From Gemmatimonadales bacterium (lineage in GTDB: Bacteria > Gemmatimonadota > Gemmatimonadetes > Gemmatimonadales > JACORV01), in contig DATJUT010000101.1 in assembly GCA_035502185.1 (NCBI GenBank), positions 24,300 through 88,299 of the forward strand: a stretch of DNA of 64,000 nt, read 5' to 3'. Below the pieces are notes generated by a model, which saw only the letters and a list, made by a program, of their open reading frames with translations, was not told where the DNA came from and searched no databases. Below are positions 4,711 through 51,929 of this stretch, one piece after another. Every line of letters starts with the position of its first letter. Position 1 is the first letter of the stretch. The position numbers and the translations under genes are program-made.

Positions 4711-4779
4711 CGCCGCTTGCCGCGTCCGCTCATGAGGGGTTAACGTAGCCGCCGCACCCATGCCAGCGCCACTTTCGCG

Positions 4780-5964
4780 ATGACCGACATCGCGCCCGCG
4801 CCTCGGCTCGGCGAGCTCGTGCGCGAGCTCCGGAACCGCGAGTTCCCGTGGACCGCCGAGACCATCTACCTGGCGGCCGCCTCGGTCGGTCCGCTGCCCG
4901 AGCGCGCGCGGCTCGCGATCGAGGCGTTCAACGCCAAGCGCACCGCGCCCCACCTGCTGCCGGACCGCGAGCTGAACGCGGTGGCCGCCGCGGCCCGCAG
5001 CGCGGCCGCGCAGCTGGTGCACGCCGAGCCCGAGGAGATCGCGCTCGTCCCGAACACGTCCACGGGCCTCCAGGCCGCGGCCGGCGCGCTTCCGCTCGGC
5101 GCCGGCGACGTCGTGCTGGTGAGCGATCGCGAGTTCCCGGCGAACGTGTATCCCTGGCTGGCCCGGCGCCGGAACGGCGTGATCGTGGAGCGGGTGCCCG
5201 TGACGCCGGAGGGATTCCCCGACGAGGACCGGCTGGTCGAGCGCGTGGCGGACCCGCGCGTCAAGGTGCTCGCGGTCTCCGCCGTGCAGTTCTCCAACGG
5301 GTACCGGGCCGACCTGGCCCGCCTGGGCGCCGCCTGCCGGGCGGGCGGAGCCTGGCTGGTGGTGGATGCCATCCAGGCGCTCGGCGCCGTGCCGGTGGAC
5401 GTGCGCGCGGTACCGGTGGACCTGATGGCCTGCGGTGGGCAGAAGTGGCTGCTGGGGCCCTGGGGCTCGGGGTTCTGCTACGTGCGCCGCGACCTGGTGG
5501 GCCGGTTGGTGCCGCCGATGTCCGGATGGATGTCCTATCGGGGCATGGAGGACTATTCCAACCTGCTGAGCTACGACGAGCGCCTGGTGGACGACGCGCG
5601 GCGGTTCGAGGCGGCGGGACCCGCGACCCAGGACCAGCTGGGCCTGACGGCCTCCATCGGGCTGCTGCTCGAGCTGGGCGTGGAGGCGATCGCGGTCTAT
5701 CTCCGCTGGCTGGGGGAGCCGGTGCTGGCATGGGCGGCCAGCCGCGGCGTCCGGATCAGCTCGCCGACCGACCCGCGCCACCGCTCCCAGATCGTGTGCC
5801 TGGCGCCTCCCGACGCCCGGGAGGCGCACCGCCGCCTGCGGCAGGCCGGGGTCGTCTCGTCGCTGCGCGAGGGCGCGATCCGGCTGGCCCCGCACTGCTA
5901 CAACACGATCGAGGAGATGGAGAAGGTGGTGGAGGTGCTGGAGGGGATGATGCGGGAGCGATGA
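4780..5964 (+). CDS. Class V aminotransferase / cysteine desulfurase-like PLP enzyme
   Basis: 394-aa ORF with fold-type I class V features. Putative PLP-Lys in GGQKWLLGPWGSG, and a typical C-terminal LRLAPHCYNT segment. Confidence 0.75.
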   Translation: MTDIAPAPRLGELVRELRNREFPWTAETIYLAAASVGPLPERARLAIEAFNAKRTAPHLLPDRELNAVAAAARSAAAQLVHAEPEEIALVPNTSTGLQAAAGALPLGAGDVVLVSDREFPANVYPWLARRRNGVIVERVPVTPEGFPDEDRLVERVADPRVKVLAVSAVQFSNGYRADLARLGAACRAGGAWLVVDAIQALGAVPVDVRAVPVDLMACGGQKWLLGPWGSGFCYVRRDLVGRLVPPMSGWMSYRGMEDYSNLLSYDERLVDDARRFEAAGPATQDQLGLTASIGLLLELGVEAIAVYLRWLGEPVLAWAASRGVRISSPTDPRHRSQIVCLAPPDAREAHRRLRQAGVVSSLREGAIRLAPHCYNTIEEMEKVVEVLEGMMRER

Positions 5965-5967
5965 AGC

Positions 5968-6015
5968 GTGAGAGGTGAGGGGTGAGACGTGAGAGGTTCA
6001 GGTGAGCGGTGAGAT
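5968..6015. repeat. About seven tandem heptamers GTGAGNN between convergent genes
   Basis: GTGAGAG GTGAGGG GTGAGAC GTGAGAG GTTCAG GTGAGCG GTGAGAT read directly. The last units pair with TCTCACCGTCACC inside the tyrS 3' end. Confidence 0.8.
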
Positions 6016-7232
6016 CACTTCTCACCGTCACCGATCACCACGTCCGCGAACTTCAGCTTGCCGTACTTGACCACGTACGACCCCGCCTCCAGCACCCGGT
6101 TCGCGTCCTCGACCTTCGCGCCGTCGAGCTGTACGCCGCCCTGGGCCGCCATCCGGCGGGCCTCGCCGAGGGAAGCCGCGAAGCCGATGTCCTTGAGCAC
6201 CTGGGCCAGCGATGCCGGACCGTGTGCGAAGTGCGGCCGCTCGGCCGGCGCCTGCTTGGCCTTGAACAGCCGGTCGAAGTGCGCCGCCGCCTGCACGGCC
6301 GCTGCGGCGCCGTGGAACTGCGTCACGACGTCGGCCGCGAGCCACCGCTTGGCGGCATACGGCTCCGCGCGGCAGCGCGCCAGCGCCGCGGCCAGATCGC
6401 CCGTCGAGCCCGCGGTGGAGACCAGGGTCGTCCACTCCTCGAGCAGCGTGTCCGGAATGGACATCGTCTTGCCGTACTGGCTCTCCGGCGGCTCGGTGAT
6501 GCCGACGTAGTTGTCGTACGACTGGGACATCTTCCGCTCGCCGTCGGTGCCGCGCAGCAGCGGCATCACCAGGCACACCTGCGGCTCCAGGCCCAGGCGC
6601 TCCATTAGCGTGCGGCCGACCAGCAGGTTGAACTTCTGGTCGGTGCCGCCGAGCTCGACGTCGGCCTTGAGGGCCACGGAGTCGTAGCCCTGCAGCAGCG
6701 GATAGAGGAACTCCGCGAGCGTGATCGGAGCCTCGGCCGCGTAGCGCTTGGCGAAGTCGTCGCGCTCGAGCAGCCGCGCGACGGTGTAGTGGCCGGCCAT
6801 CCGGGTCAGCGCGTCCCGGAGCGACATCGCGCCGTGCCATTCGCTGTTGCGACGCAGCGTCGTGCCGCGCGCATCGAGCATCTTGAGCGCCTGCTCGCGG
6901 TAGGTGGCGGCGTTCGCCTCGACCTCCGCCGCCGTGAGCGGCGGGCGGGTCTCGCTCCGACCGCTGGGGTCGCCGACCATCGCGGTGAAGTCACCCACCA
7001 GGAAGGTGACGCTGTGGCCGAGCTCCTGGAACGTGCGCAGCTTCCGGAGCGAGACCACGTAACCGAGATGCAGGTGGGGCCGGGTCGGGTCGAAGCCCTG
7101 CTTGACGTTCAGCGGGACGCCGGTCTTCGCGGAGCGCTCCAGCTTGCGCGCGAGGTCGTCCTCGGGGATGATCTCCACCGCGCCGCGGCGGATCGCGTCC
7201 ATCTGCTCGTTCACGGGCGGAAAGACGGGCAT
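6015..7232 (-). CDS. tyrS: Tyrosine--tRNA ligase
   Basis: HLGY (HIGH-type) and KMSQS (KMSKS) class I motifs, a C-terminal S4-like domain, 405 aa. Confidence 0.95.
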
Positions 7233-7299
7233 GCGCTATCGTAGCCGCGGCACCCGCCCGCTGGCAAGCGCACCGCCGTCCCGGTAACTTCCGCAGCCC

Positions 7300-16558: not shown

Positions 16559-17999
<1,441 letters not shown>

Positions 18000-22265: not shown

Positions 22266-23522
22266 GTGACCATCCCCCGCTGGTTCGAGGAGCGCCTCGC
22301 GCTCGAGCGGTTCAAGGCGAAGTACCTGGGCAAGCCGTTCCCGGTCCACTCCACCTTCTTCCTCGGCGAGATTGCGCTGTTCTGCTTCGTGGTGCTGGTC
22401 GGCACCGGCTTGTACCTGGCTCTGTTCTACGAGCCGTCGGCGGCGCTGGTGGCGGCCGACGGGGGCCGGCTCCCGGCCGCGTACGCGAGCACGCTGGCCA
22501 TCGACGCCCAGCCGTTCTCCGCCCTGATGCGGCGGATCCACCACTGGGCGGCGCACCTGATGATCGCCGCCATGCTGCTGCACCTCGTGCGCGTCTACTT
22601 CACCGCCGCGTACAAGCGGCCCCGCGAGGCGAACTGGGTGCTGGGGCTGGGGCTGCTCGGCATGACCGTCGCGGCGTCGTTCGCCGGCTACCTGCTGCCG
22701 TACGACCAGTTCTCGGTCACGGCGACGGCGATCGGATACGGCATTGCGCGGTCGGTGCCGTGGATCGGGCCGACGCTGGCCGACTACGTGTTCGCCGGCC
22801 GGTTCCCGTCGCCGGAGACGGTGCCGCGGTTCTTCGCCTACCATGTGGTGCTGGCGCCGCTCGCCCTGAGCGCGCTGGTGGGGCTGCACCTCCTCATCGT
22901 GCTGAAGCAGAAGCACACCGAGCTCGGCGCCGCCGGCCGCCCCGATCCCGTCGAGGGGAAGTGGATCCGGGGCATTCCGCTGTGGCCCGAGCAGACCGCG
23001 CTGATGGGCGTGCTGTTCCTCGTGATCGTCGCCGTCGCGGCGGCGCTGGCGGCGTTCCTGCCCGTGCACCCCTCCGCGTTCTTCGGGCCGCCGCAGCCGG
23101 CGACGCCCGACGTCAAGCCGGACTGGTACCTGCTGTGGATCTACGGTGCGCTGCGGCTGATCCCTGGCACGCTGAGCTTCCGCATCCTGGGGGCGACGAT
23201 CGGGCCGGAGGCGATCGGCGCCATGCTGGTGCCCGGGATCATCGGCCTGATCGTCGTCCTCGTGCCGTGGATCGACCGCACGCCGTCGTCGCTCTACTAC
23301 GCCGAGGCGCCGACGGCGGGCCCGCGCCGCCTCGCGCTGGGGCTGGCGGTGGTGGTGTTGTTGCTGGCGCTCTCGCTCGCCGGTTTCGGGACGGAGCTGG
23401 GCCTCGGGGTGCCGGTGCTGTGGGGCATCACCGTGGCGGCGCCCGTCGCGACGGCGGTCGGCGCGAGCGCCCTGGCGCGGCGGCGGGCGGAAAAGGCAAT
23501 GCAGGGAGCAGGGGTGCGGTAA
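22266..23522 (+). CDS. Cytochrome b (fused b6/subunit IV-length) of a bc-type complex
   Basis: 418 aa, multiple TM helices. Haem-ligand His pairs in HHWAAHLMIAAMLLH and the following helices. PEWY-region-like motif PDWYLLW. Confidence 0.9.
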   Translation: MTIPRWFEERLALERFKAKYLGKPFPVHSTFFLGEIALFCFVVLVGTGLYLALFYEPSAALVAADGGRLPAAYASTLAIDAQPFSALMRRIHHWAAHLMIAAMLLHLVRVYFTAAYKRPREANWVLGLGLLGMTVAASFAGYLLPYDQFSVTATAIGYGIARSVPWIGPTLADYVFAGRFPSPETVPRFFAYHVVLAPLALSALVGLHLLIVLKQKHTELGAAGRPDPVEGKWIRGIPLWPEQTALMGVLFLVIVAVAAALAAFLPVHPSAFFGPPQPATPDVKPDWYLLWIYGALRLIPGTLSFRILGATIGPEAIGAMLVPGIIGLIVVLVPWIDRTPSSLYYAEAPTAGPRRLALGLAVVVLLLALSLAGFGTELGLGVPVLWGITVAAPVATAVGASALARRRAEKAMQGAGVR

Positions 23523-23525
23523 GCA

Positions 23526-23669
23526 GGGCAGTTGCCAGACGGCAAGTTGCCAGTGGTTCCAAGCGGCAAGTCAGAAGGGGTCAGCCCAGATGCCAGTACT
23601 GACAACTGGGCTGGCCCCTCATGACTTGCGTCTGGCAACCACTGGCAACTTGCCGTCTGGCAACTGCCC
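23526..23669. repeat. Long nearly perfect hairpin element (copy 1) between convergent operons
   Basis: The 33-nt arm GGGCAGTTGCCAGACGGCAAGTTGCCAGTGGTT is perfectly complementary to 23637..23669. The inner 24-nt arms (23566..23589 and 23606..23629) have 21 Watson-Crick pairs plus 1 G-U. The loop is 16 nt. Confidence 0.85.
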
Positions 23670-23687
23670 CGCACCCTGCGCCTCCGT

Positions 23688-25130
23688 CTACTGGGCCGGT
23701 ATCCCGGTCGTATGGCAGATCAGGCACATCGCCCGGTTCTTGCTCGCGACCGACGGGTTGAAGCCGGCGCCGTGCGGGTCGATGTGCTGGCCGCTCGTGG
23801 CCGAGTGGCAGCGGAGGCAGAAGTCCTGCGCGTGGCAGCTGGCGCAGGTCTCGATCGCGCGGCGCGCGACGCCGCCGTGCCCGAACAGCCACCCCGGCTG
23901 CTTGTCGTGATAGCCCGCGCTGACGGGCGTGGTGGCGCTGGAGCGCCCGAGCGCCTGGTGGCAGTCGTGGCAGAACACCTGGGTCTGGTGGCAGGCCGCA
24001 CACTCGGCCTCCGCCGCATAGGCCTGGGTCGCGTGCCGCAGCACGAAGTTCGGGCCGTGGAACGCGGGCGCCTTCGCCGCGGCATGGCAGGTCGTGCAGT
24101 ACGACGGCCGGTGGCAGGTCGCGCAGCTGGCCGTTCCGCCCGCGGCCATCTCCCGGTGGTGCAGCAGCTGGTCGGGCAGGTGGTCGGCCGGCTTGAGACC
24201 GGCCAGGTTGACGCCGAAGGCGCCGCCCGCCGCGCGGCGGGGCAGGGCGGCGATCGCCGGCACGCGCTCCTGCACGCGGTGGCAGCCGATGCACGACTCC
24301 TGGGCGTGGCAGTTGGCGCATTCGACGACGCCGGCGCGCGCGACGACGCCGTGGCGTCGCGTCCAGTCGCTGGCTTCGTGCGACGGCGGCCGCGGGTAGG
24401 CGAACGTGAGCGTCCGCACCAGCTCGGCCTCCCGGTCGTCGGCCGGGAGGTCGCGGATCGCCTGCACCGCACGCGCATTGACGTGGCAGGCGGCGCAGAA
24501 CTGCTGCGCGTGGCACACCGCGCAGGTCGGGCCCGCCGCCGCGGTCTGGTGGTGCAGGATCCAGCTCGAGTCGTGCGACGGCGGCTTGGGAAAGGCGCGG
24601 ATCGTCTCGACGCTCAGCGCCGCGGCGTCGTGCAGCGTGGCGTGGCACGGCTGGCACGACTCCTGGGCGAGGTGGCTCGGCGCGCCCTGGCCGTGGCAGG
24701 AAACGCACCGCGCCGGGTTCGCGCGGCCGACCTCCATGTACGGCAGGGAGTCGGCGCTGGCGTGGCACTTCTGGCAGTTGGCGCCCCCGCTGTCCATCGC
24801 CTCGAACATCGCGACGTGGGGGACGTGGTCGAACGTCAGGTTGGTGGCCCGTCGCTGGGGCGGCGTCCAGCTCACCGGGCGTGCGAGGTCGCCGTTGTGG
24901 CAGCCGGCGCACAGCTGCGGCGACGGCCAGACGTCGGCGGTGTCGCCGGTCGCGATGCCCGCGTGGCACGCGGCGCAGGTGGTGAACAGCCGGGCGTGGC
25001 GGGCGTGCGGGAACGTGTCGGTGGCGAAGCGGGCGGCGGCCGCGGGCCGCGGCCGGACGCTGCGGGGAGCCCACGCGCCGGCCAGCAGCGCCGACAACGC
25101 GAGCAGGGCGGAGGCGGCGCGCGCGATCAC
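23688..25130 (-). CDS. Periplasmic multihaem cytochrome c (16 CXXCH)
   Basis: GTG 25130 (GTGA overlap with the upstream gene). Signal peptide ALLALSALLAGAWA. 16 CXXCH motifs by my count, many as doubled CXXCH-x3/4-CXXCH pairs. Confidence 0.9.
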   Translation of the reverse strand: MIARAASALLALSALLAGAWAPRSVRPRPAAAARFATDTFPHARHARLFTTCAACHAGIATGDTADVWPSPQLCAGCHNGDLARPVSWTPPQRRATNLTFDHVPHVAMFEAMDSGGANCQKCHASADSLPYMEVGRANPARCVSCHGQGAPSHLAQESCQPCHATLHDAAALSVETIRAFPKPPSHDSSWILHHQTAAAGPTCAVCHAQQFCAACHVNARAVQAIRDLPADDREAELVRTLTFAYPRPPSHEASDWTRRHGVVARAGVVECANCHAQESCIGCHRVQERVPAIAALPRRAAGGAFGVNLAGLKPADHLPDQLLHHREMAAGGTASCATCHRPSYCTTCHAAAKAPAFHGPNFVLRHATQAYAAEAECAACHQTQVFCHDCHQALGRSSATTPVSAGYHDKQPGWLFGHGGVARRAIETCASCHAQDFCLRCHSATSGQHIDPHGAGFNPSVASKNRAMCLICHTTGIPAQ

Positions 25131-26527
25131 TGGTAGCTCCCGACGCGATCGGCGTCGGCCCCGATGGTCCAGTCGAAGGTGACCGAGGCGCGGGTCTGGT
25201 TCCAGTCGAGCCCGGTTGAGCCCGTCTGACGCCGCTGGAAGTAGCGCATCAGGTCCACCTTGAGCCCGACGCGACGGTCCAGTGCCGTCCCGAAGTCCGC
25301 GCCGAGCCCGTAGACGGTGCCCCCGGCGACCCGGAACATGTCGGTCTGCTGGAACGCGGTGGTCTGGACGCCGGCGTGCCATCCGCCGCCGGGAGACCAG
25401 GCGGCCCGGAGGTCCCCTCCGCTCTGGTCGCCGCCGAAGCCCAGCTCGAGGTGGTAGTCCCCGTCGATCGTGTAGGCGCCCCGCCGCACGTGCACGCCGG
25501 CCGTGGCCTCCTTCTGGTCGTTGCCGACGTCCACCAGGAACGGCGAGCCGCTGCTCAGCGGCTGCCAGCGCCGGTAGGTGAAGGCGCCGGACAGCGACAC
25601 GTCGCGCGCGGCCGCCACGTTGACGGTCGCCGACACGCCGTAGTGCGACTCGGGCGAGAACACGCCCCAGATGGTCGAGAGATCCAGCGTCGGCCGGTAC
25701 TGGAACGCCTCGAGCTGGACCGAGTTGCCGTTCCCGAGCAGCACCGTCGCGCTGATGCGCGCCTTGCCCCATTGCTGCCGCGCCACGTCGGCGTCGGCCG
25801 ATCCCGCCAGCACCACCCGGGAGCCCACCCCCAGGCGGCCGTCGAACGCTGCGCGCTCGGACACCAGCCCGCTGCGGTCGGACAGCAGCTCGCGCTGGTA
25901 GATGGCCGAGAAGCTCGAGCGCGGCGAGGGCGCCGCCCACAGCGACGCACCGAGCAGGATGGTGCCGTGATCTTGCTGCAGCGGGTCGAGCGAGGTGATG
26001 GCCGAGCTGTTGGGCGCGTCGAGCGACGCGCGCGCCAGGCCGCGACCTCCGTAGCCCTCGATCCGCAGCGCCGCGAGGGGCCTCCAGCTGGCCGTCAGGC
26101 CGTCGAAGGCGTACCACCCGAGCCCGGACGCGCGCTGCTGCCGGCCGCCGCGCAACAGGTAGTGCGGCCGCTCCAGCTCGAGGTAGGCGTACATGGTCTG
26201 GAAGTGCTCGTCGGACTCGGGCCAGATCAGGCCGGAGCCGAGAGCGGCGCGGCCCCGCACGAGCGCGTACGCCCGCAGGCCCTCGATGCCCAGACCCCAC
26301 GCCGAGACCTCGAGGTCCTGGGTGAACGGCGCCGCGTAGGTGGCCGGCAGCGACACGAAGGCGCCCGTATCGTTGTTGGCCGCCGAATCGAACGCGATCG
26401 GCCGCAGTTGCACGTACTGGGTCGTGGTCGTGCCGTGTACGCGGATGTCCTGGCCGCGGAGCGCGGGGGCGCGGGCCGCGGCGAGCGCGAGCAGGACGGG
26501 GGCGATCCGTAGGAGCGGGTAGCGCAT
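25127..26527 (-). CDS. Outer-membrane beta-barrel protein (porin of a porin-cytochrome module)
   Basis: Signal peptide MRYPLLRIAPVLLALAAARAPALRGQ. No Cys. Alternating amphipathic segments rich in G/Y/W/R/D. Embedded between multihaem cytochrome genes. Confidence 0.7.
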   Translation of the reverse strand: MRYPLLRIAPVLLALAAARAPALRGQDIRVHGTTTTQYVQLRPIAFDSAANNDTGAFVSLPATYAAPFTQDLEVSAWGLGIEGLRAYALVRGRAALGSGLIWPESDEHFQTMYAYLELERPHYLLRGGRQQRASGLGWYAFDGLTASWRPLAALRIEGYGGRGLARASLDAPNSSAITSLDPLQQDHGTILLGASLWAAPSPRSSFSAIYQRELLSDRSGLVSERAAFDGRLGVGSRVVLAGSADADVARQQWGKARISATVLLGNGNSVQLEAFQYRPTLDLSTIWGVFSPESHYGVSATVNVAAARDVSLSGAFTYRRWQPLSSGSPFLVDVGNDQKEATAGVHVRRGAYTIDGDYHLELGFGGDQSGGDLRAAWSPGGGWHAGVQTTAFQQTDMFRVAGGTVYGLGADFGTALDRRVGLKVDLMRYFQRRQTGSTGLDWNQTRASVTFDWTIGADADRVGSYQ

Positions 26528-26529
26528 CG

Positions 26530-28188
26530 TCAGCTCCGGGCCGTGACCTTGTGGCATTGTTCGCACGCCTGTCCCGGGACGTGACGTGCCTGCGACGTGT
26601 GGCACGCCAGGCACATCTCGCGGGTGGCCGGCAGGTTGGCCGCACGGGCGCCGTGACAGGCGGCGCTCGCGCAGTTGGGGTGGTCGGCGGCCTTGTGGTC
26701 GGCGAGGGCGTTGGCGCCGGCGTGGCACGCCACGCAGTTCGCCGCGGGCCGGTGGTGGGCGACGTGGCACGACGCGCAATCGGCGCCATCCGGGGCGCGG
26801 GAGACCGGATCGGTATGACACTGCACGCAGGCGATGCCGCCGTGGCGCTGGTGCTCGAACGGCAGCCGCCGGGTCACCGTCCCGCGCTTGGCCGCGATCT
26901 CGAAGGTCCGCAGCGGCTGCAGCACCGCCCGGCCCAGCGCCGCCACGTCGTGGCACGTCGCGCACTGCACGCGCTCCGGGCCGCTGTGATGGCACCGCTG
27001 GCAGTCCGCGGCCGAGTGGACCAGCAGCTCCCCGTGGCGCACGCGGCTCGAATGACAGCTCGAACACGCCTGCCCGCGGTGGTCGCCGTGCGAAAAGCGC
27101 GGCACGGGGCCCGCACTCACCGCGGGTTGCTGCGCTCCCCGGAGCTGCGCCTCCGGCTCCCACACCGTCCCGGTCGAGGCGAAGTCCGCGACCGCGGTGG
27201 GCACGTCCAGCCTGCTGCGGGGCGCCCAGCTCACCCGTCGCCCGCGGGTCGGTGCCTCACGGGGGATGTTCGCGTGGCACCTCGTGCAGTTCTCTCCCTC
27301 CACCCGCCAGCTGTGCGGCTGATGGCAGGTCGTGCAGCGGTCGGGGTGCGGCACGCCCACGTGGAAGCTGACCCGCTGCCAGCCGGCATGGCAGCCGGCG
27401 CTGGTGCAGCTCACGTCCTGCGGCTTGGTCTGGGTGTGCGGGTTGTGGCAGTCGCCGCAGACGCCGTTGTGCGGGTCGCGCCCGACGTCCATCCGCTGCA
27501 ACCGCTGCTGCATCGCGTGGCACGACAGGCACTGGGCCGCCGCGGGCGTCAGCGGCTTGCCGAGCGAGTCCACCGCGAAGGTGCGCGCCTCCGCGAGGAA
27601 GTTGTGGCACGTGGTGCAGTGCAGCTCGCTCAGCTCCCCCATCTTCCCCAGGTGGATCGCGTTGTGGTCGTGGCAGCCCGACCGGCCGCAGGTCTGGTCC
27701 ACCGAGGCGAACTCGTGCAGGGAGACCCCGTGGCACTCCACGCATCGCATGCCCTTGAGCCTCGGGTCCTTCGACTCGAGGTGGATGCGGTGCCCGGCCG
27801 TGGCGGCGATGATCTTCCACTTGGTGGAGTCGCCGGTGACGTGGCACCTGGCGCAGACCTCGTTGGGCACGCGCGCGTGGCGGCCGATGCTGGTCGGGTT
27901 TGCGACGGCGGTCAGCCACAGCTGATGCAGCTGCTCCGGAATCCTGCCCTCGTGGCAATTGTGACACTCGAGCTTCGCATGAGCGCTCCGGCTGAAGCGC
28001 TGGAACGGATCGACCATCAGGTGGCACGACGTGCAGAACCGGTTGTCGTGCTGCATGTAGTGCCACTGGCGGTAGCCGGCAACCGACGTTCCGGCCACCA
28101 CCAGCGTGACGCCGGCCGCAAGACCGATCCGCCACGCCGGCGTCAGCCGCCGCCACGCCTTCAGGACCCACTCGTAGTATCGCGTCAT
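26530..28188 (-). CDS. Membrane-anchored NapC/NirT-type tetrahaem quinol dehydrogenase fused to a long multihaem extension
   Basis: One N-terminal TM helix, then CTSCH..CHNCH..CARCH..CVECH in the NapC/NirT pattern. A further 13 CXXCH and 3 CX4CH (CGRSGCH, CTSAGCH, CASAACH). Alternative start at 28221. Confidence 0.9.
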   Translation of the reverse strand: MTRYYEWVLKAWRRLTPAWRIGLAAGVTLVVAGTSVAGYRQWHYMQHDNRFCTSCHLMVDPFQRFSRSAHAKLECHNCHEGRIPEQLHQLWLTAVANPTSIGRHARVPNEVCARCHVTGDSTKWKIIAATAGHRIHLESKDPRLKGMRCVECHGVSLHEFASVDQTCGRSGCHDHNAIHLGKMGELSELHCTTCHNFLAEARTFAVDSLGKPLTPAAAQCLSCHAMQQRLQRMDVGRDPHNGVCGDCHNPHTQTKPQDVSCTSAGCHAGWQRVSFHVGVPHPDRCTTCHQPHSWRVEGENCTRCHANIPREAPTRGRRVSWAPRSRLDVPTAVADFASTGTVWEPEAQLRGAQQPAVSAGPVPRFSHGDHRGQACSSCHSSRVRHGELLVHSAADCQRCHHSGPERVQCATCHDVAALGRAVLQPLRTFEIAAKRGTVTRRLPFEHQRHGGIACVQCHTDPVSRAPDGADCASCHVAHHRPAANCVACHAGANALADHKAADHPNCASAACHGARAANLPATREMCLACHTSQARHVPGQACEQCHKVTARS

Positions 28189-35981: not shown

Positions 35982-37358
35982 TCAGGACGATGGCTCGATG
36001 CCGAGCCGCTTCATCCTTCTATAGAGGTTGGCCCGGTCGGTCGAGAGGGTGCGCGCGGCCTCGGCCACGCTGCCGCCCGCGGCCGAGAGCGCCCGCGTGA
36101 TGAGGACGCGCTCGAACCGGTCGAGCTCGTCGCTCAGGGGCAGCGTCATGGCGGCCGGATGCGGGAGCGGCTCCTCCCGGCCGTCGCCGGCGGGCAGCGC
36201 GGCTGCGACGTCGGCCTCGCCGATCGTGCTGCGCGAGGAGAGGATGATCAACCGCTCGACGATGTTGGCCAGCTCGCGCACGTTGCCCGGCCACGGATGC
36301 CGCACCAGCCGGTCCATCGCGTCGGCGGTCACGGTGACGGCGGGCCGGCCGATGCGCCGGGTCACCAGGCCGGCGAAGTGCGCCACCAGCTCGGGGATGT
36401 CGCCGGGCCGCTCGCGCAGCGGGGCGATGACGATCGGAAAGACGTTGAGCCGGTACAGCAGGTCCTCGCGGAAGGGGCCGTCCCGGGTGGCGCGCTCCAG
36501 GTCCTTGTTGGTGGCCGACACCACCCGCACGTCGACCGGGATCGGCCGGTCGCCGCCGACCCGCTCGACCTCTCCGCCCTCGAGCGCGCGGAGCAGCTTG
36601 GCCTGCGCCTCGGGCGAGAGGTCGCCCACCTCGTCGAGGAACAGGGTGCCGCCGTCCGCCTGCTCGAAGCGGCCGAGGCGCCGCTCGGTCGCCCCGGTGA
36701 ACGAGCCGCGCTCGTGGCCGAACATCTCCGATTCCACCAGCTCGCGCGGGATGGCGGCGCAGTTCACGCGGACGAACGGCGCGTCGGCGCGGGCGCTCGC
36801 CGCGTGGATGGCGCCGGCCACCAGCTCCTTGCCGGTGCCCGATTCGCCGGAGACCAGCACCCGGGCCTCGGTGGGGGCGACGCGGGCGATGAGCGAGCGG
36901 AGCTCGGTCATCTGCGGACTCGAGCCCACCAGCGTGGCCGTCGGGCCGAGGGCCTCGCGCAGCGCCATGGCTTCGGCGCGGGCGCGGGCCAGCTCGAGGG
37001 CCGAGTGGAGCGTCAGCAGCACCGCCTCGGGGGCGAGCGGCTTCTCCAGGAAGTGGTAGGCGCCGAGCTTGGTGGCGCGCACGGCGTCGGCGAGCCCCGC
37101 GCGTCCGCTCATCATGATCACGGGGACGCCCGGCACCTCGGCGCCGAGGCGCTCGAGCGTCTCCAGGCCGTCGGGGCCGCCGGGCATGGAAAGGTCGAGG
37201 AACACGGCGTCGGGGCGCCGGCGCTGCGCGGCGGCGACCGCATCCGTGCCCGAGGCGGCCTCGGCGGTGCGGTAGCCGTCCGAGGCGAGGACCGCGCACA
37301 GCATCCGCCGGAGGTTCGCCTCGTCGTCCACCACGAGCACCACGGGGTGCCGGGTCAC
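35982..37358 (-). CDS. Sigma-54-dependent response regulator (NtrC/NtrX-like)
   Basis: GTG 37358 (GTGA overlap with the kinase stop). Receiver VLVVDDE...DLSMPG. AAA+ domain with GESGTGKE, ESEMFGH and GSFTGA. C-terminal HTH. Confidence 0.92.
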   Translation of the reverse strand: MTRHPVVLVVDDEANLRRMLCAVLASDGYRTAEAASGTDAVAAAQRRRPDAVFLDLSMPGGPDGLETLERLGAEVPGVPVIMMSGRAGLADAVRATKLGAYHFLEKPLAPEAVLLTLHSALELARARAEAMALREALGPTATLVGSSPQMTELRSLIARVAPTEARVLVSGESGTGKELVAGAIHAASARADAPFVRVNCAAIPRELVESEMFGHERGSFTGATERRLGRFEQADGGTLFLDEVGDLSPEAQAKLLRALEGGEVERVGGDRPIPVDVRVVSATNKDLERATRDGPFREDLLYRLNVFPIVIAPLRERPGDIPELVAHFAGLVTRRIGRPAVTVTADAMDRLVRHPWPGNVRELANIVERLIILSSRSTIGEADVAAALPAGDGREEPLPHPAAMTLPLSDELDRFERVLITRALSAAGGSVAEAARTLSTDRANLYRRMKRLGIEPSS

Positions 37359-38590
37359 GCGCGCGCCACCGGCAGCGTGACGGTGAACGTGGTGCCGCGG
37401 CCGGGCTCGCTCGTGACGCCGATCGAGCCGCCGTGATCGTGGATCGTCTGCCGCACCAGCGCGAGCCCCAGGCCGGTGCCCTTCGCCTTGGTGGTGAAGT
37501 AGGGCTCGAAGATCCGTTCCAGCCGCTCCGCGGGGATCCCGACGCCGTTGTCGCGCACGGCGATCTCGACGGCCGGGGCCGCACCGTTGGGCGCCGCGCG
37601 CAGCGCGACCGTGATCTCGCCGCCTCGCGGCGGCGCCTTCCCGGGCCCGGCGGGCGCGGCATCGCGGCAGGCGTCGCAGGCGTTGAGGACGAGGTTGTGC
37701 AGCGCGCGGCGCAGCGGCTCGTAGTGGGCGCTCACCAGTGGCAGGTCCGGCGCGCTCTCCACCCGGACGGCGATCTCGGGGGGCACGGTCCCCTTCACCA
37801 GGGTCTCCACCAGCTCGACGAGGTCCACGGGCGCCGGCGGGCCCTCCGGGAGCCGGCCCAGCGTGGCGAAGTCGCGCGCCATCTGCTCGATGCGCTCGCT
37901 CTCGCCCTCCACGATCTCGAGCAGCTCCCGCTGGTCCGGTCGCGCGTCCTGGGCGAGGCGCGAGGTGGCGAAGCGGAGCGGCGTCAGCGGGTTCTTCAGC
38001 TCGTGGGCCACCTGGCGCGCCAGGTCGCGGAAGGCCCGGAGCTGGGCCGCCTCCACCTCGCGCGCCCGGGCGGCGGCGAGGTCCGTCGCCATCGCGCGGA
38101 AGGCATTGCGCAGCACGTCGAATTCGGGAGCGCCCTTGGCCGGGGGGGCGACCGGGAGCGGCTCGCCGCGCGTCAGGCGTCCCGTCCAGGCGATCAGCTC
38201 GTCGATGGGGCGGGACAGCTGCCGCGACAGGTGGCCGGCGAGACGGACGGTGCCGAGCGCCACCAGGGCGGCGAGGGCGGCGGCGAAGCCGGCGAGCGCG
38301 CGCGCGAACGTGTCCCGAACGGTCTGGCTCCGCCGCGCGAGGGTCAGCGAGTTGCTCAGGTCGTCGGCATGGTGGCGCAGAGCGGCGCGGGCGGCAGGCG
38401 TGAGCGGCTGGCGGGCCAGCGCGCGCTGGGCCTCGAGCCAGGTGCTCGCGGCGCGGTCCCAGGCGGCGACGCCGCCGACCGGCGCCGCGATCCGCGGCGC
38501 CAGCAGCGAGACGGCCACGCCGACCCCGGCGGGGATCGCCGCGACCGCGACGAGCCACGCGAAGAGGCTGCGACGGAAGGCGAGGGCCAC
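37355..38590 (-). CDS. Membrane sensor histidine kinase with HAMP domain (NtrY-like)
   Basis: Two TM segments and a HAMP-like linker. H-box AHELKNPLTPL. N/G boxes NLVLNA, DNGVGI, GTGLGL. Confidence 0.88.
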   Translation of the reverse strand: MALAFRRSLFAWLVAVAAIPAGVGVAVSLLAPRIAAPVGGVAAWDRAASTWLEAQRALARQPLTPAARAALRHHADDLSNSLTLARRSQTVRDTFARALAGFAAALAALVALGTVRLAGHLSRQLSRPIDELIAWTGRLTRGEPLPVAPPAKGAPEFDVLRNAFRAMATDLAAARAREVEAAQLRAFRDLARQVAHELKNPLTPLRFATSRLAQDARPDQRELLEIVEGESERIEQMARDFATLGRLPEGPPAPVDLVELVETLVKGTVPPEIAVRVESAPDLPLVSAHYEPLRRALHNLVLNACDACRDAAPAGPGKAPPRGGEITVALRAAPNGAAPAVEIAVRDNGVGIPAERLERIFEPYFTTKAKGTGLGLALVRQTIHDHGGSIGVTSEPGRGTTFTVTLPVARA

Positions 38591-38650
38591 GCGCCAAAGG
38601 TGGGGCTGCGCACCGTCAGTCTCAAGAGTGGAGTAAATGACGGTGGGCAG

Positions 38651-38791
38651 AACAGTTGCGAGACGCCGAGTTGCGAGTGGTCGTGAGTGGGCAGCTGGGA
38701 GGGGCGAGACCAGTTGTCAGGTACTGCCCACTGGCCTGCAGTCCGTTCACTCAGGACTCGTAACCACCCGCAACCCGGCGTCTCGCAACTG
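38651..38791. repeat. Hairpin element (copy 2), diverged and inverted relative to 23526..23669
   Basis: The arm ACAGTTGCGAGACGCCGAGTTGCGAGTGGT pairs with 38762..38791 at 28 of 30 positions. The core matches copy 1 in reverse complement (CAGTAC(C)TGACAACTGG.CT.GCCCCTC). Confidence 0.8.
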
Positions 38792-38868
38792 TACTCGCTC
38801 TCACCACTTACGTCTCTCTCCGGGAACAGAAACTGGCCCGCGCGTCGTGGCATGGGTATCATTGAAAG

Positions 38869-51712: not shown

Positions 51713-51730
51713 TCCGACCGGAAACGAAAC

Positions 51731-51754
51731 GGGGCCCGGCAACCGCCGGACCCC
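51731..51754. terminator. Hairpin between convergent genes
   Basis: GGGGCCCGGC aacc GCCGGACCCC (one mismatch), preceded by GAAACGAAAC, which gives a U-rich tail on the minus strand. Confidence 0.45.
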
Positions 51755-51779
51755 GGATGGTCGGTGGAGCGCGAGCGGA

Positions 51780-51929
51780 CTAGTTCCGCTCCCGCCACTC
51801 CTCCACGTCGTTCGCCTCTTCTTCGTCGGCCCAGAACCACATCAGGATGCGCGGTGCGCGGTGCACGTCCGCCCCGTCCCGGATCACGATGCCCACCGGC
51901 TCCGTCGCCGCCAAGATCGCTGTCGCCAT
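51780..51929 (-). CDS. Hypothetical 49-aa protein
   Basis: ATG..TAG ORF MATAILAATEPVGIVIRDGADVHRAPRILMWFWADEEEANDVEEWRERN. Strong G/C third-position bias and no recognised motif. Confidence 0.3.
   Translation of the reverse strand: MATAILAATEPVGIVIRDGADVHRAPRILMWFWADEEEANDVEEWRERN

What the first reader, a model, noticed from the sequence alone, without database searches (positions are those of the whole stretch)
38640..38800. Second, inverted copy of the hairpin element with compensatory arm substitutions, which defines a structured repeat family
The 30-nt arms 38651..38680 and 38762..38791 pair at 28 of 30 positions. In reverse complement, the centre matches copy 1: CAGTAC(C)TGACAACTGG.CT.GCCCCTC.

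The arm word differs between copies, GTTGCGAG here against GTTGCCAG in copy 1. The change is mirrored on the partner arm (CTCGCAAC against CTGGCAAC), so pairing is preserved by covariation.

Both mismatches are A-C on the plus strand and become G-U wobbles in a minus-strand RNA. This is consistent with the inverted orientation and with an RNA-level function.

The element lies between the divergent kinase gene (37355..38590) and the acyl-CoA ligase gene.
Basis: seen in the sequence. Interest (0 to 1): 0.62.

Follow-up and report, generated by a model that had tools for sequence, protein, structure and literature searches.

The report
Palindromic heptad-repeat element family in Gemmatimonadales
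The hairpin is real and is one copy of an apparently undescribed, roughly 205-bp palindromic intergenic repeat found in at least 13 uncultured Gemmatimonadales species, but its "compensatory" G/C changes are a genome-wide sequence flavour and are not evidence for an RNA structure.

Summary
The element at window ~38620-38824 is a long imperfect palindrome and a relative of the one at 23496-23699.

A pattern scan of 185,579 species genomes found the arm in 92 eight-kb blocks. All but one record are titled Gemmatimonadales or Gemmatimonadetes MAGs, 13 MAGs in all. With the window this gave 77 full hairpins and 35 strong solo arms.

**Anatomy**
- Each arm is an array of about 12 units of roughly 7 nt ending in AG.
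- The arm has a near-invariant 33-nt core, CAGTTGCSAGACGCCRAGTTGCSAGTGGTT.

**Family behaviour**
- Elements usually abut stop codons. They lie mostly between convergent or tandem genes.
- They have no target-site duplication and no neighbouring transposase.
- No two copies in one genome exceed 75% identity.
- Copies are kept at orthologous sites across species, and occasional empty sites exist.

**The G/C "covariation"**
- It also links direct-repeat positions that cannot pair with each other.
- It is genome-specific and flips at orthologous sites.
- G·U pairs show no sense-strand bias.
- A solo arm keeps its core in four species.

The selected or homogenised unit is therefore the arm sequence. 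The helix is not the unit.

**Best reading:** an ancient, non-autonomous intergenic repeat in the REPIN/ERIC/Correia style. It is kept in concert by a sequence-specific factor or by gene conversion, and it forms a hairpin in 3' UTRs when transcribed. It is a new variant of a known kind.

The parts
38620..38824 (.). Copy 2, whole element (~205 bp): outer heptads, core arm, centre, core arm, outer heptads. The outer limits are approximate.
   Evidence: Inverted repeat 38625-38688 / 38756-38819. Fold z = -7.2 and -6.7. Arm-profile hits at 38635-38713(+) and 38796-38731(-). Orthologous element in L073 and L016. Extent of the inserted unit inferred from the filled/empty comparison L068 vs window.
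38653..38687 (+). Copy 2 left core arm, G flavour: CAG|TTGCGAG|ACGCCGAG|TTGCGAG|TGGTCGTGAG
   Evidence: Positions -2..+32 of the family profile, near-invariant in 115 arms.
38757..38791 (-). Copy 2 right core arm. Read on the minus strand: CAGTTGCGAGACGCCGGGTTGCGGGTGGTTACGAG
   Evidence: Pairs with the left core at 30/35 Watson-Crick plus 2 G·T and 3 A·C.
38688..38756 (.). Copy 2 centre, type A (GGGGCsAGaCCAGTTGTCAG-GTAC-CTGACAACTGG...), apex GTAC at 38721-38724. It is asymmetric, and this is the only thing that gives the element an orientation.
   Evidence: Shared idiosyncrasies with the ortholog L073.
38620..38652 (+). Copy 2 left outer heptads (degenerate N5-AG units). They lie 30 nt from the kinase start codon. 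The block CAGTCTCAAGAG is conserved in three species.
38792..38824 (-). Copy 2 right outer heptads (CT-N5 units on the + strand).
23496..23699 (.). Copy 1, whole element, C flavour, type A centre (apex GTAC 23596-23599). It lies between the convergent cytochrome b gene (22266-23522, plus strand) and ORF 23688-26789 (minus strand). The TAA stop of cytochrome b (23520-23522) lies inside the outer heptads.
23529..23563 (+). Copy 1 left core arm: CAGTTGCCAGACGGCAAGTTGCCAGTGGTTCCAAG
   Evidence: 33/35 Watson-Crick with 23632-23666.
23632..23666 (-). Copy 1 right core arm.

Best explanation
Copy 2 is one member of a clade-restricted family of ~205-bp palindromic intergenic repeats in uncultured Gemmatimonadales.

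**Anatomy.** Each arm is an array of about a dozen units of roughly 7 nt ending in AG. The central 33 nt, CAGTTGCSAGACGCCRAGTTGCSAGTGGTT, are almost invariant. The two arms are inverted copies of this same constrained sequence, and that is why they pair.

**History.** Elements entered as whole units, without target-site duplication, into the short spacer after stop codons. They have since been inherited vertically for a long time. They are no longer, or only very rarely, copied. Some lost an arm and became solo arms, and some exchanged centres.

**Maintenance (inferred).** The core is kept and changed in concert within each genome, as GAG or as CAG/AAG units. The agent is either a genome-encoded sequence-specific factor that reads the repeated units or frequent short-patch gene conversion among copies. 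I favour a factor.

**Consequence (inferred).** When transcribed as part of a 3' UTR, the element folds into a long hairpin with ~33 bp of perfect duplex. This would block 3' exonucleases, help 3'-end formation or insulation between neighbouring genes, and be an RNase III substrate, as is known for REP, ERIC and Correia elements.

**Shown here:** family membership, anatomy, position, age, concerted change, and gain or loss of elements. **Inferred:** the factor, transcription and the RNA effect.
For: **Family and anatomy**
- 92 genome blocks, 91 of them in MAGs titled Gemmatimonadales or Gemmatimonadetes. 206 arms, giving 77 full and 35 strong solo elements.
- 7-nt periodic AG signal from -27 to +58, with an invariant core.

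**Position**
- Context of full elements: 23 convergent, 31 tandem, 5 divergent.
- The stop codon lies 0-46 nt from the arm anchor in 65 of 76 gene-3' flanks.
- Neighbouring genes are unrelated housekeeping genes such as RecA, FtsK, PntB and TGT.

**Mobility and age**
- Filled/empty pair: L068 6706-6914 against window ~51719, with insertion between the stop codon and a native hairpin. A second pair is L052/L088.
- No target-site duplication at any offset.
- The best same-genome pair is only 75% identical over the unit.
- Orthologous retention in 3-4 species.

**Constraint and concerted change**
- In 16 strict orthologous pairs, identity is 88% in the core, 82% in the flanks, 67% in the centre and 48% at flavour positions.
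- Flavour is genome-specific and sits at the same relative place in five units.
- A solo arm is conserved in 4 species inside otherwise unalignable spacer.

**Rearrangement**
- A centre was swapped at one orthologous site.
- Solo arms sit at sites that are full in other species.
Against: - No transcript data exist, so the RNA-level consequence is pure inference.
- The window copies lack a U-tract, and a simple terminator scan finds nothing at either copy.
- In L068 the element sits next to a retained native terminator-like hairpin, so it is not needed there as the terminator.
- Copy 2 itself lies between divergent genes, which is the rare context (5 of 59 classified). There it must overlap a promoter or 5' UTR and cannot be in a 3' UTR.
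- No candidate factor or mobilising enzyme was identified.
- Only 8-kb blocks around perfect-core arms were sampled, so copy numbers, age structure and the absence of a transposase are all lower-bound or biased statements.
- Gene conversion alone could mimic part of the conservation.
Confidence: 0.55

Rival explanations
1. Structured non-coding RNA. The hairpin is the functional unit, it is transcribed from one strand, and compensatory substitutions preserve the helix.
For: - Very stable folds.
- 95.7% of cells in the core helix form standard pairs, and there are more double-change cells than in shuffles: 36 against 14.7.
- Positions 5, 13 and 20 are Watson-Crick in both variants.
Against: - Covariation is confined to 3-5 two-state flavour positions.
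- It is equally strong between non-pairing positions.
- The number of covarying pairs is not above shuffles: 5 against 4.6.
- The RNAalifold covariation term is -0.58 kcal/mol.
- Variable positions outside the core pair at random.
- There is no G·U excess on the sense strand.
- A solo arm is conserved without a partner.
- Elements occur in both orientations and all gene contexts.
- There is no Rfam family, only sub-threshold miRNA-hairpin noise.
Confidence: 0.08
2. Classical REP/REPIN system. The arms are REP sequences, the full element is a REPIN, and it is mobilised and maintained by a RAYT (TnpA-REP, a Y1 HUH transposase) encoded once per genome.
For: - Extragenic, tens of copies per genome.
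- Inverted doublets plus singlets, and no target-site duplication.
- 3'-of-gene bias.
- Vertical persistence, and a genome-specific sequence variant like REP/RAYT pairs.
- For the known system: PMC3116915, PMC3333891, PMC8266576.
Against: - A single arm is not a palindrome and does not fold; z = -0.8 to +0.3. REP units are defined as short imperfect palindromes with a GTAG or CGTC tag (PMC3733652, title and abstract).
- No recurrent gene flanked by arms was found in 92 blocks.
- Heptad periodicity is not a REP feature.
Confidence: 0.12
3. Functionless by-product. Polymerase slippage builds heptamer arrays, fold-back events make them palindromic, and ectopic gene conversion homogenises the core. 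The elements are tolerated only where they do least harm, after stop codons.
For: - The same genomes hold at least 13 other inverted heptamer or octamer-array hairpins: (GGTGAGA)n, (GTGATGAr)n and (GGGTGTA)n.
- Perfect 25-nt tandem triplications of arm ends.
- A centre swapped between elements at one site.
- Heptameric repeats are over-represented in bacterial intergenic DNA, and slippage has been proposed as the cause (PMC4692102).
Against: - Neutral drive predicts arbitrary fixed differences among genomes. The differences instead fall only on the base before AG in five units, while all other core positions are the same in 13 species.
- Hybrid arms (position 5 differs from position 20) are common in the mixed genome, 10 of 47, which argues against whole-arm conversion tracts.
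- The core is more conserved than the coding flanks.
Confidence: 0.17
4. DNA-level site array for a chromosome-organising or DNA-binding protein (in the manner of REP/BIME binding by IHF or gyrase). The inverted arms are two binding arrays and no RNA is involved.
For: - Sequence conservation, not conservation of pairing.
- Symmetry on both strands.
- No strand bias.
Against: - A 7-bp period does not match the DNA helical repeat.
- Tight abutment to stop codons and avoidance of divergent spacers suggest a transcript-level or promoter-avoidance constraint.
- No candidate protein.
Confidence: 0.08

Closest known systems
REP / REPIN elements with RAYT (TnpA-REP)
   Same: - Short extragenic repeats, tens to hundreds per genome.
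- Inverted doublets that form a long hairpin, plus singlets.
- No target-site duplication.
- Preference for gene 3' ends.
- Long vertical persistence and lineage-specific sequence variants.
   Different: - The arm is not itself a palindrome and there is no GTAG/CGTC-tagged stem-loop.
- The arm is about 90 nt of 7-nt-period units; a REP unit is a 20-40-nt hairpin.
- No RAYT was seen next to any of 112 elements, though sampling was limited.
Correia (nemis) elements of Neisseria and ERIC/IRU of enterobacteria (comparison from my own knowledge)
   Same: - Imperfect palindromes of 100-200 bp in intergenic DNA.
- Co-transcribed with neighbouring genes.
- The long RNA hairpins are RNase III or RNase E targets and change mRNA stability.
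- Presence/absence polymorphism between relatives.
   Different: - Correia elements have 26-bp terminal inverted repeats and a TA duplication. This family has no duplication.
- Those families are conserved evenly along their length. Here a 33-nt core is near-invariant while the rest is about 65% identical.
- The heptad architecture and the genome-wide flavour switch are not described for them.
Intergenic heptameric repeat arrays: Xanthomonas (GGGAATC)n, Nostoc GGGGA(C/T)T, and the three tandem heptanucleotides of Calothrix (PMC4692102)
   Same: - Units of 7 nt in intergenic DNA.
- Often at the same inter-gene positions in related species, with sequence and length variation.
- Some occur as inverted pairs able to form stem-loops.
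- Function unknown.
   Different: - Those are homogeneous tandem arrays of one unit. Here the units differ from one another in a fixed order and form a conserved, non-repetitive 33-nt core.
- Only the AG, plus the flavour base before it, recurs.
- True homogeneous arrays such as (GGTGAGA)n also exist in these genomes, as a separate family.
TRAP and HutP RNA targets: (G/U)AG triplets with 2-3 nt spacers, and UAG triplets with 4-nt spacers (my own knowledge; a resemblance only)
   Same: - Many NAG triplets at a fixed short spacing. The 4-nt spacer and 7-nt period match HutP sites.
- They lie on the 5' side of a hairpin that could act as a terminator.
   Different: - Those are single regulatory leaders of one operon, not a dispersed family of tens of copies at gene 3' ends.
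- No TRAP or HutP homologue was looked for or found here.
- The core conserves much more than the triplets.

Membership tests
REP/REPIN-RAYT | Each repeat unit is a short (20-40 nt) imperfect palindrome with a GTAG or CGTC tag | tested here: not met
   Consensus single arms of both flavours and the complementary arm fold no better than shuffles: z = -0.79, +0.15 and +0.29.
REP/REPIN-RAYT | Two inverted units form a hairpin doublet, and singlets also occur | tested here: met
   77 doublets with anchor-to-anchor modes of 134 and 143-146 nt, and 35 strong singlets.
REP/REPIN-RAYT | A RAYT (Y1 transposase) gene flanked by the repeats in the same genome | tested here: inconclusive
   No recurrent non-orthologous neighbour gene was found. 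Pfam hits of 81 neighbour ORFs are housekeeping families, but only the top 25 of 125 families were listed. Genes lying between arm pairs are DnaX-like, YraN, RecA, FtsK and 23S_rRNA_IVP. Whole genomes could not be scanned.
MITE (DDE-transposon derived) | Target-site duplication flanking the terminal inverted repeats | tested here: not met
   No direct repeat of 3 nt or more above background at any of 36 x 36 boundary offsets in 75 elements.
MITE (DDE-transposon derived) | An autonomous partner IS with the same ends | tested here: inconclusive
   None in 92 genome blocks. The arm pattern is absent from IMG/VR viral contigs and copy 1 has no match in PLSDB plasmids.
MITE (DDE-transposon derived) | Presence/absence polymorphism at orthologous sites | tested here: met
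   L068 is filled and window ~51719 is empty. L052 is filled and L088 lacks it.
MITE (DDE-transposon derived) | Near-identical copies within a genome (recent amplification) | tested here: not met
   Maximum same-genome identity is 75% over the 205-nt unit among 471 pairs. The sample is limited to fetched blocks.
Structured ncRNA family | Covariation that supports the helix beyond shared ancestry | tested here: not met
   Double changes occur only at flavour positions. The count of pairs with double change is 5 against 4.6 in shuffles. Non-pairing positions covary as strongly. Covariation term -0.58 kcal/mol.
Structured ncRNA family | Strand specificity (G·U tolerated on the transcribed strand) | tested here: not met
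   Sense-strand G·U 70 against A·C 58 in the core, p = 0.33. Over all positions 265 against 235, p = 0.19.
Structured ncRNA family | Match to a curated Rfam model | tested here: not met
   0 hits at gathering score in the whole window. Only sub-threshold miRNA-precursor hairpins at E up to 10.
Intrinsic (rho-independent) terminator | G+C-rich hairpin followed by a U-tract | tested here: not met
   No terminator-like site at copy 2 or copy 1. Of two terminator-like-centre copies scanned, one is flagged and the other is not.
Intrinsic (rho-independent) terminator | Position just downstream of a stop codon | tested here: met
   Met for the family: 65 of 76 gene-3' flanks have the stop codon 0-46 nt from the arm anchor. 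Not met for copy 2 itself, which lies between two gene starts.
Heptameric simple-sequence repeat arrays | Head-to-tail copies of one 7-nt unit | tested here: inconclusive
   The 7-nt periodic AG signal is clear, but the units differ from one another. TRF calls only fragments, e.g. L028 AGTTGCC x4.4 and L084 ACTGGCA x4.9.

The most novel reading that the evidence does not exclude
The arms are arrays of roughly 10-12 NAG triplets spaced 7 nt apart. An oligomeric, sequence-specific nucleic-acid-binding protein reads them, following TRAP/HutP-like logic. Its triplet preference differs between genomes: GAG in some, CAG/AAG in others.

Binding to the 5' arm of the transcript would compete with formation of the long hairpin. 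The family would then be a genome-wide set of protein-controlled 3'-end or terminator hairpins. The concerted GAG-to-CAG switch at orthologous sites would record co-evolution of the protein with dozens of its sites.
Probability: 0.1. Interest if true: 0.85.

Novelty: new variant of a known kind. Interest (0 to 1): 0.52.

Why it matters
- **An apparently undescribed repeat family.** It belongs to a poorly studied phylum known almost only from metagenomes. I found no description in full-text searches or in Rfam.
- **A caution about "covariation".** Matching changes on the two arms of a palindromic repeat can come from a family-wide sequence variant and say nothing about RNA structure. The test is to compare pairing partners with non-pairing repeat positions.
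- **An unusual evolutionary pattern.** Dozens of orthologous, vertically inherited elements have changed the same base in five successive repeat units, on both arms, in a genome-specific way. The rest of the core stayed fixed across 13 species. This points to an unidentified recognition factor or an unusually efficient homogenising process, and it makes that question testable.

Tried and rejected
- **Rfam.** Nothing at gathering threshold. At permissive E-value only miRNA-precursor noise.
- **Other collections.** No match to copy 1 in PLSDB plasmids. No arm pattern in IMG/VR viral contigs.
- **Sigma-54 promoter in the TGGCAAC words.** Rejected by eye: the GG-N10-GC spacing does not fit.
- **Integron attC.** Rejected by eye: GTTGCGA does not fit GTTRRRY.
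- **Target-site duplication.** Negative at all boundary offsets.
- **Transposase or RAYT between or next to arms.** Only housekeeping genes were found.
- **G·U against A·C strand-bias test for RNA-level selection.** No bias.
- **Sigma-70 promoter and intrinsic terminator scans at both window copies.** Nothing found.
- **First orthology threshold.** A cut-off of 72% flank identity was too lax for 73% G+C DNA and gave 145 mostly spurious pairs. I redid the analysis with stricter cut-offs, which gave 16 pairs.
- **Literature.** Searches for Gemmatimonadetes with REP or MITE found nothing relevant.
- **Not used.** The metagenome scan, structure prediction and protein homology searches were not run. 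The genome scan already gave enough copies and no candidate protein emerged.

Full report
**1. The observation**

The region 38620-38824 is a long imperfect palindrome. The repeat finder reports arms 38625-38688 / 38756-38819, 64 nt and 73% complementary.

The near-perfect inner arms pair at 27/30 in the register 38653-38682 with 38762-38791, and all three mismatches are A·C on the + strand.

Both strands fold far better than shuffled sequence, with z = -7.2 and -6.7.

"Copy 1" is at 23523-23672, with 75-nt arms, 87% complementarity and no loop (z = -12.2). It shares the arm architecture and, in reverse complement, the centre.

The double-octamer pattern GTTGCSAG-N-GTTGCSAG occurs 4 times in the window against 0 expected.

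Copy 2 lies between a divergent histidine kinase and an AMP-binding ligase. Copy 1 lies between the convergent cytochrome b gene and a long ORF.

**2. It is a real family**

The window is 72.8% G+C and is an ENA metagenome contig.

I scanned one genome per species (185,579 species) with CAGTTGCNAGACGNCNNGTTGCNNGTGG. This found 92 eight-kb blocks in 13 MAGs. Twelve are titled Gemmatimonadales or Gemmatimonadetes and one is titled only 'bacterium'.

A profile of the arm then found 206 arms in the 777 kb held. These make 77 full hairpins and 35 strong solo arms. Anchor-to-anchor length clusters at 134 nt and at 143-146 nt.

Nothing matched in viral contigs, plasmids or Rfam. Literature searches found no description.

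**3. Anatomy**

I aligned 115 arms on the G of GTTGC. This shows a 7-nt periodic AG signal from about -27 to +58. The AG falls at -27/-26, -20/-19, -13/-12, -6/-5, -1/0, 6/7, 14/15, 21/22, 31/32, 38/39, 45/46 and 52/53.

Positions -2..+32 are almost invariant: CAG|TTGCSAG|ACGCCRAG|TTGCSAG|TGGTTnCSAG. The outer and inner units keep little more than the AG.

Centres fall into two classes:
- Type A continues the units to a GTAC apex. Both window copies are type A.
- Type B/C carries a G+C-rich hairpin flanked by AGAA and TTCT.

Both centre types occur with both arm variants.

A single arm does not fold on its own. Some copies carry perfect 25-nt tandem triplications of the arm end.

**4. The "covariation"**

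The two arms of an element almost always carry the same variant. At position 5 the pairs are GC 39, CG 32 and non-pairs 4. At position 13 they are GC 37 and AT 30.

Several results show that this is not helix maintenance:

- **The switch is array-wide.** The variable base is the one before AG in five successive units: positions 5, 13, 20, 30 and, more weakly, 37. G-type arms read GAG throughout, and C-type arms read CAG or AAG.
- **Non-pairing positions are equally linked.** Same-arm direct repeats (L5 vs L20, p = 1e-13) and non-partner cross-arm positions (p = 1e-13 to 1e-14) are associated as strongly as pairing partners (5e-11 to 4e-19).
- **Variable positions outside the core pair at random.** Position 44 shows GG 14, CG 13, GC 12 and CC 10.
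- **Formal tests agree.** RNAalifold predicts only the 25 core pairs, with a covariation term of -0.58 kcal/mol. The number of pairs with double changes is 5, against 4.6 in shuffles.
- **No strand bias.** Oriented by flanking genes, sense-strand G·U (70) is not favoured over A·C (58), p = 0.33.

**5. Concerted, genome-specific evolution**

Variant counts per MAG are:

| MAG | Count |
|---|---|
| CAWETG | 42/44 G |
| CAWDZR | 32/32 G |
| DATKNX | 9/9 C |
| DATKLR | 9/12 C |
| CAVQXV | 30/47 C, with 10 hybrids |
| window | one C element and one G element |

Many elements sit at orthologous sites in different species. Copy 2 has orthologs in L073 (CAVQXV) and L016 (DASPTN). These share the same idiosyncratic centre and flanks but have C-type arms.

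In 16 strict orthologous pairs, identity by region is:

| Region | Identity |
|---|---|
| Flanks (mostly coding) | 82% |
| Outer units | 73% |
| Non-flavour core | 88% |
| Centre | 67% |
| Flavour positions | 48% |

In 9 of the 16 pairs the variant flips, in every case but one to the prevalent variant of each genome.

A solo arm between two tandem genes keeps its core in four species while the surrounding spacer is unalignable. It is C-type in the C-type genome.

The arm sequence is therefore what is constrained or homogenised. The helix is not.

Purely neutral homogenisation would be expected to fix arbitrary differences between genomes. The differences instead lie only at the equivalent position of each unit. 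I therefore favour recognition by a repeat-reading factor, but short-patch gene conversion is not excluded. A centre swap at one orthologous site shows that elements do recombine.

**6. Mobility and age**

- One site filled in L068 (6706-6914) is empty in the window at ~51719. The element lies between the stop codon and a retained terminator-like hairpin. L052/L088 is a second case.
- There is no target-site duplication at any boundary offset.
- No same-genome pair exceeds 75% identity.
- Solo arms sit at sites that are full in other species.
- Neighbouring genes are unrelated housekeeping genes, and no transposase or recurrent gene was found.

The family is old and now essentially static.

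**7. Position**

Full elements lie between convergent (23) or tandem (31) genes and rarely between divergent ones (5).

In 65 of 76 gene-3' flanks the stop codon is 0-46 nt from the arm anchor, so it is at or inside the outer units. For copy 1 the TAA of cytochrome b is 9 nt from the anchor.

This fits residence in 3' UTRs. Neither window copy has a canonical U-tract terminator, and only one of the two other copies scanned does.

Copy 2 is in the rare divergent context. The element fills 205 of the 278 intergenic bases and starts 30 nt from the kinase start codon.

**8. Comparison with known systems**

The family works most like REP/REPIN, ERIC and Correia elements. It fails defining tests for each class considered:
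- REP units, because the arm is not a palindrome.
- DDE-type MITEs, because there is no duplication and there are no young copies.
- Structured ncRNAs, as set out in section 4.

The unit periodicity links it to the intergenic heptameric repeats described in Xanthomonas, Nostoc and Calothrix (PMC4692102). The same Gemmatimonadales genomes also hold at least 13 hairpins made of homogeneous inverted heptamer or octamer arrays. One arm of such an array lies in the window at 5963-6015.

**9. Verdict**

The RNA-covariation interpretation is not supported.

It is best read as an ancient, non-autonomous palindromic intergenic repeat whose arm core is maintained in concert. Its likely RNA-level consequence at mRNA 3' ends is inferred and was not shown here.

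Noticed in passing
window 5963-6015: About seven tandem units of (GGTGAGr) start right after the TGA stop (5962-5964) of the ORF at 4744-5964(+) and run into the convergent ORF 6018-7235(-). In related MAGs the same unit forms complete inverted-array hairpins: L086 7016-7165, L009 641-786, L013 2227-2373, L043 574-721 and L071 7452-7610.
   Followed up: partly
L093 5040-5133; L029 4090-4230; L044 3493-3590; L077 4058-4153; L081 458-548; L085 6744-6820: Further families of hairpins made of inverted short tandem arrays: (GTGATGAr)n facing (yTCATCAC)n, and (GGGTGTA)n facing (TACACCC)n. Together with the (GGTGAGA)n hairpins, they suggest that this clade builds intergenic hairpins from repeats of 7-8 nt as a general habit. 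Most units contain a stop codon (TGA or TAG).
   Followed up: partly
L061 6174-6209; L026 6578-6608; L038 5987-6017; L017 5062-5093; L045 711-762; L003 7509-7540: Perfect telomere-like, G-quadruplex-prone heptamer arrays, (CCCCTAG)n and (CCCTAAC)n. In L061 and L026 they sit directly beside a solo arm of the family, in place of the missing second arm.
   Followed up: no
window 51713-51783: This is an unoccupied site orthologous to the filled site L068 6706-6914. The 67-nt spacer between the convergent FHA/trypsin-like protease gene and its neighbour holds only a terminator-like hairpin, GGGGCCCGG-CAAC-CGCCGGACCCC.
   Followed up: yes
L083 2359-2879: A 170-aa gene of the 23S_rRNA_IVP / four-helix-bundle family (PF05635, E = 7e-26) lies between two inward-facing arms, so it sits inside an element.
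   Followed up: partly
L041 4568-4661; L039 6922-7009: Perfect 25-nt tandem repeats (3.5-3.8 copies) of the arm end, CAGTTGCGAGACGCCACGACCAGAA, on one side only. Single extra copies of the same 25-mer occur at unrelated sites (L031, L064, L080, L077, L078). This variant therefore either spread as a subfamily or arises repeatedly.
   Followed up: partly
L031 6121-6335 vs L007 3727-3927 and L060 6048-6251: At one orthologous site downstream of a GspF/PilC-like gene, two species carry a type A centre. The third carries a terminator-like centre plus a 25-nt duplication, between the same arms and flanks. This points to recombination between elements.
   Followed up: partly
window 16992-17089 and 36376-36473: A 98-nt direct repeat at 77% identity lies inside two ORFs. 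The copy at 36376-36473 is in the sigma-54 activator gene next to the kinase of copy 2. The two are probably paralogous NtrC-type regulators.
   Followed up: no
window 23805-24528: Three copies of a ~46-nt repeat (GTGGCAGC...GCGTGGCAG...) lie inside the long minus-strand ORF 23688-26789 next to copy 1. They look like repeated CxxCH haem-binding motifs of a multihaem cytochrome, but Pfam found no domain in this ORF.
   Followed up: no
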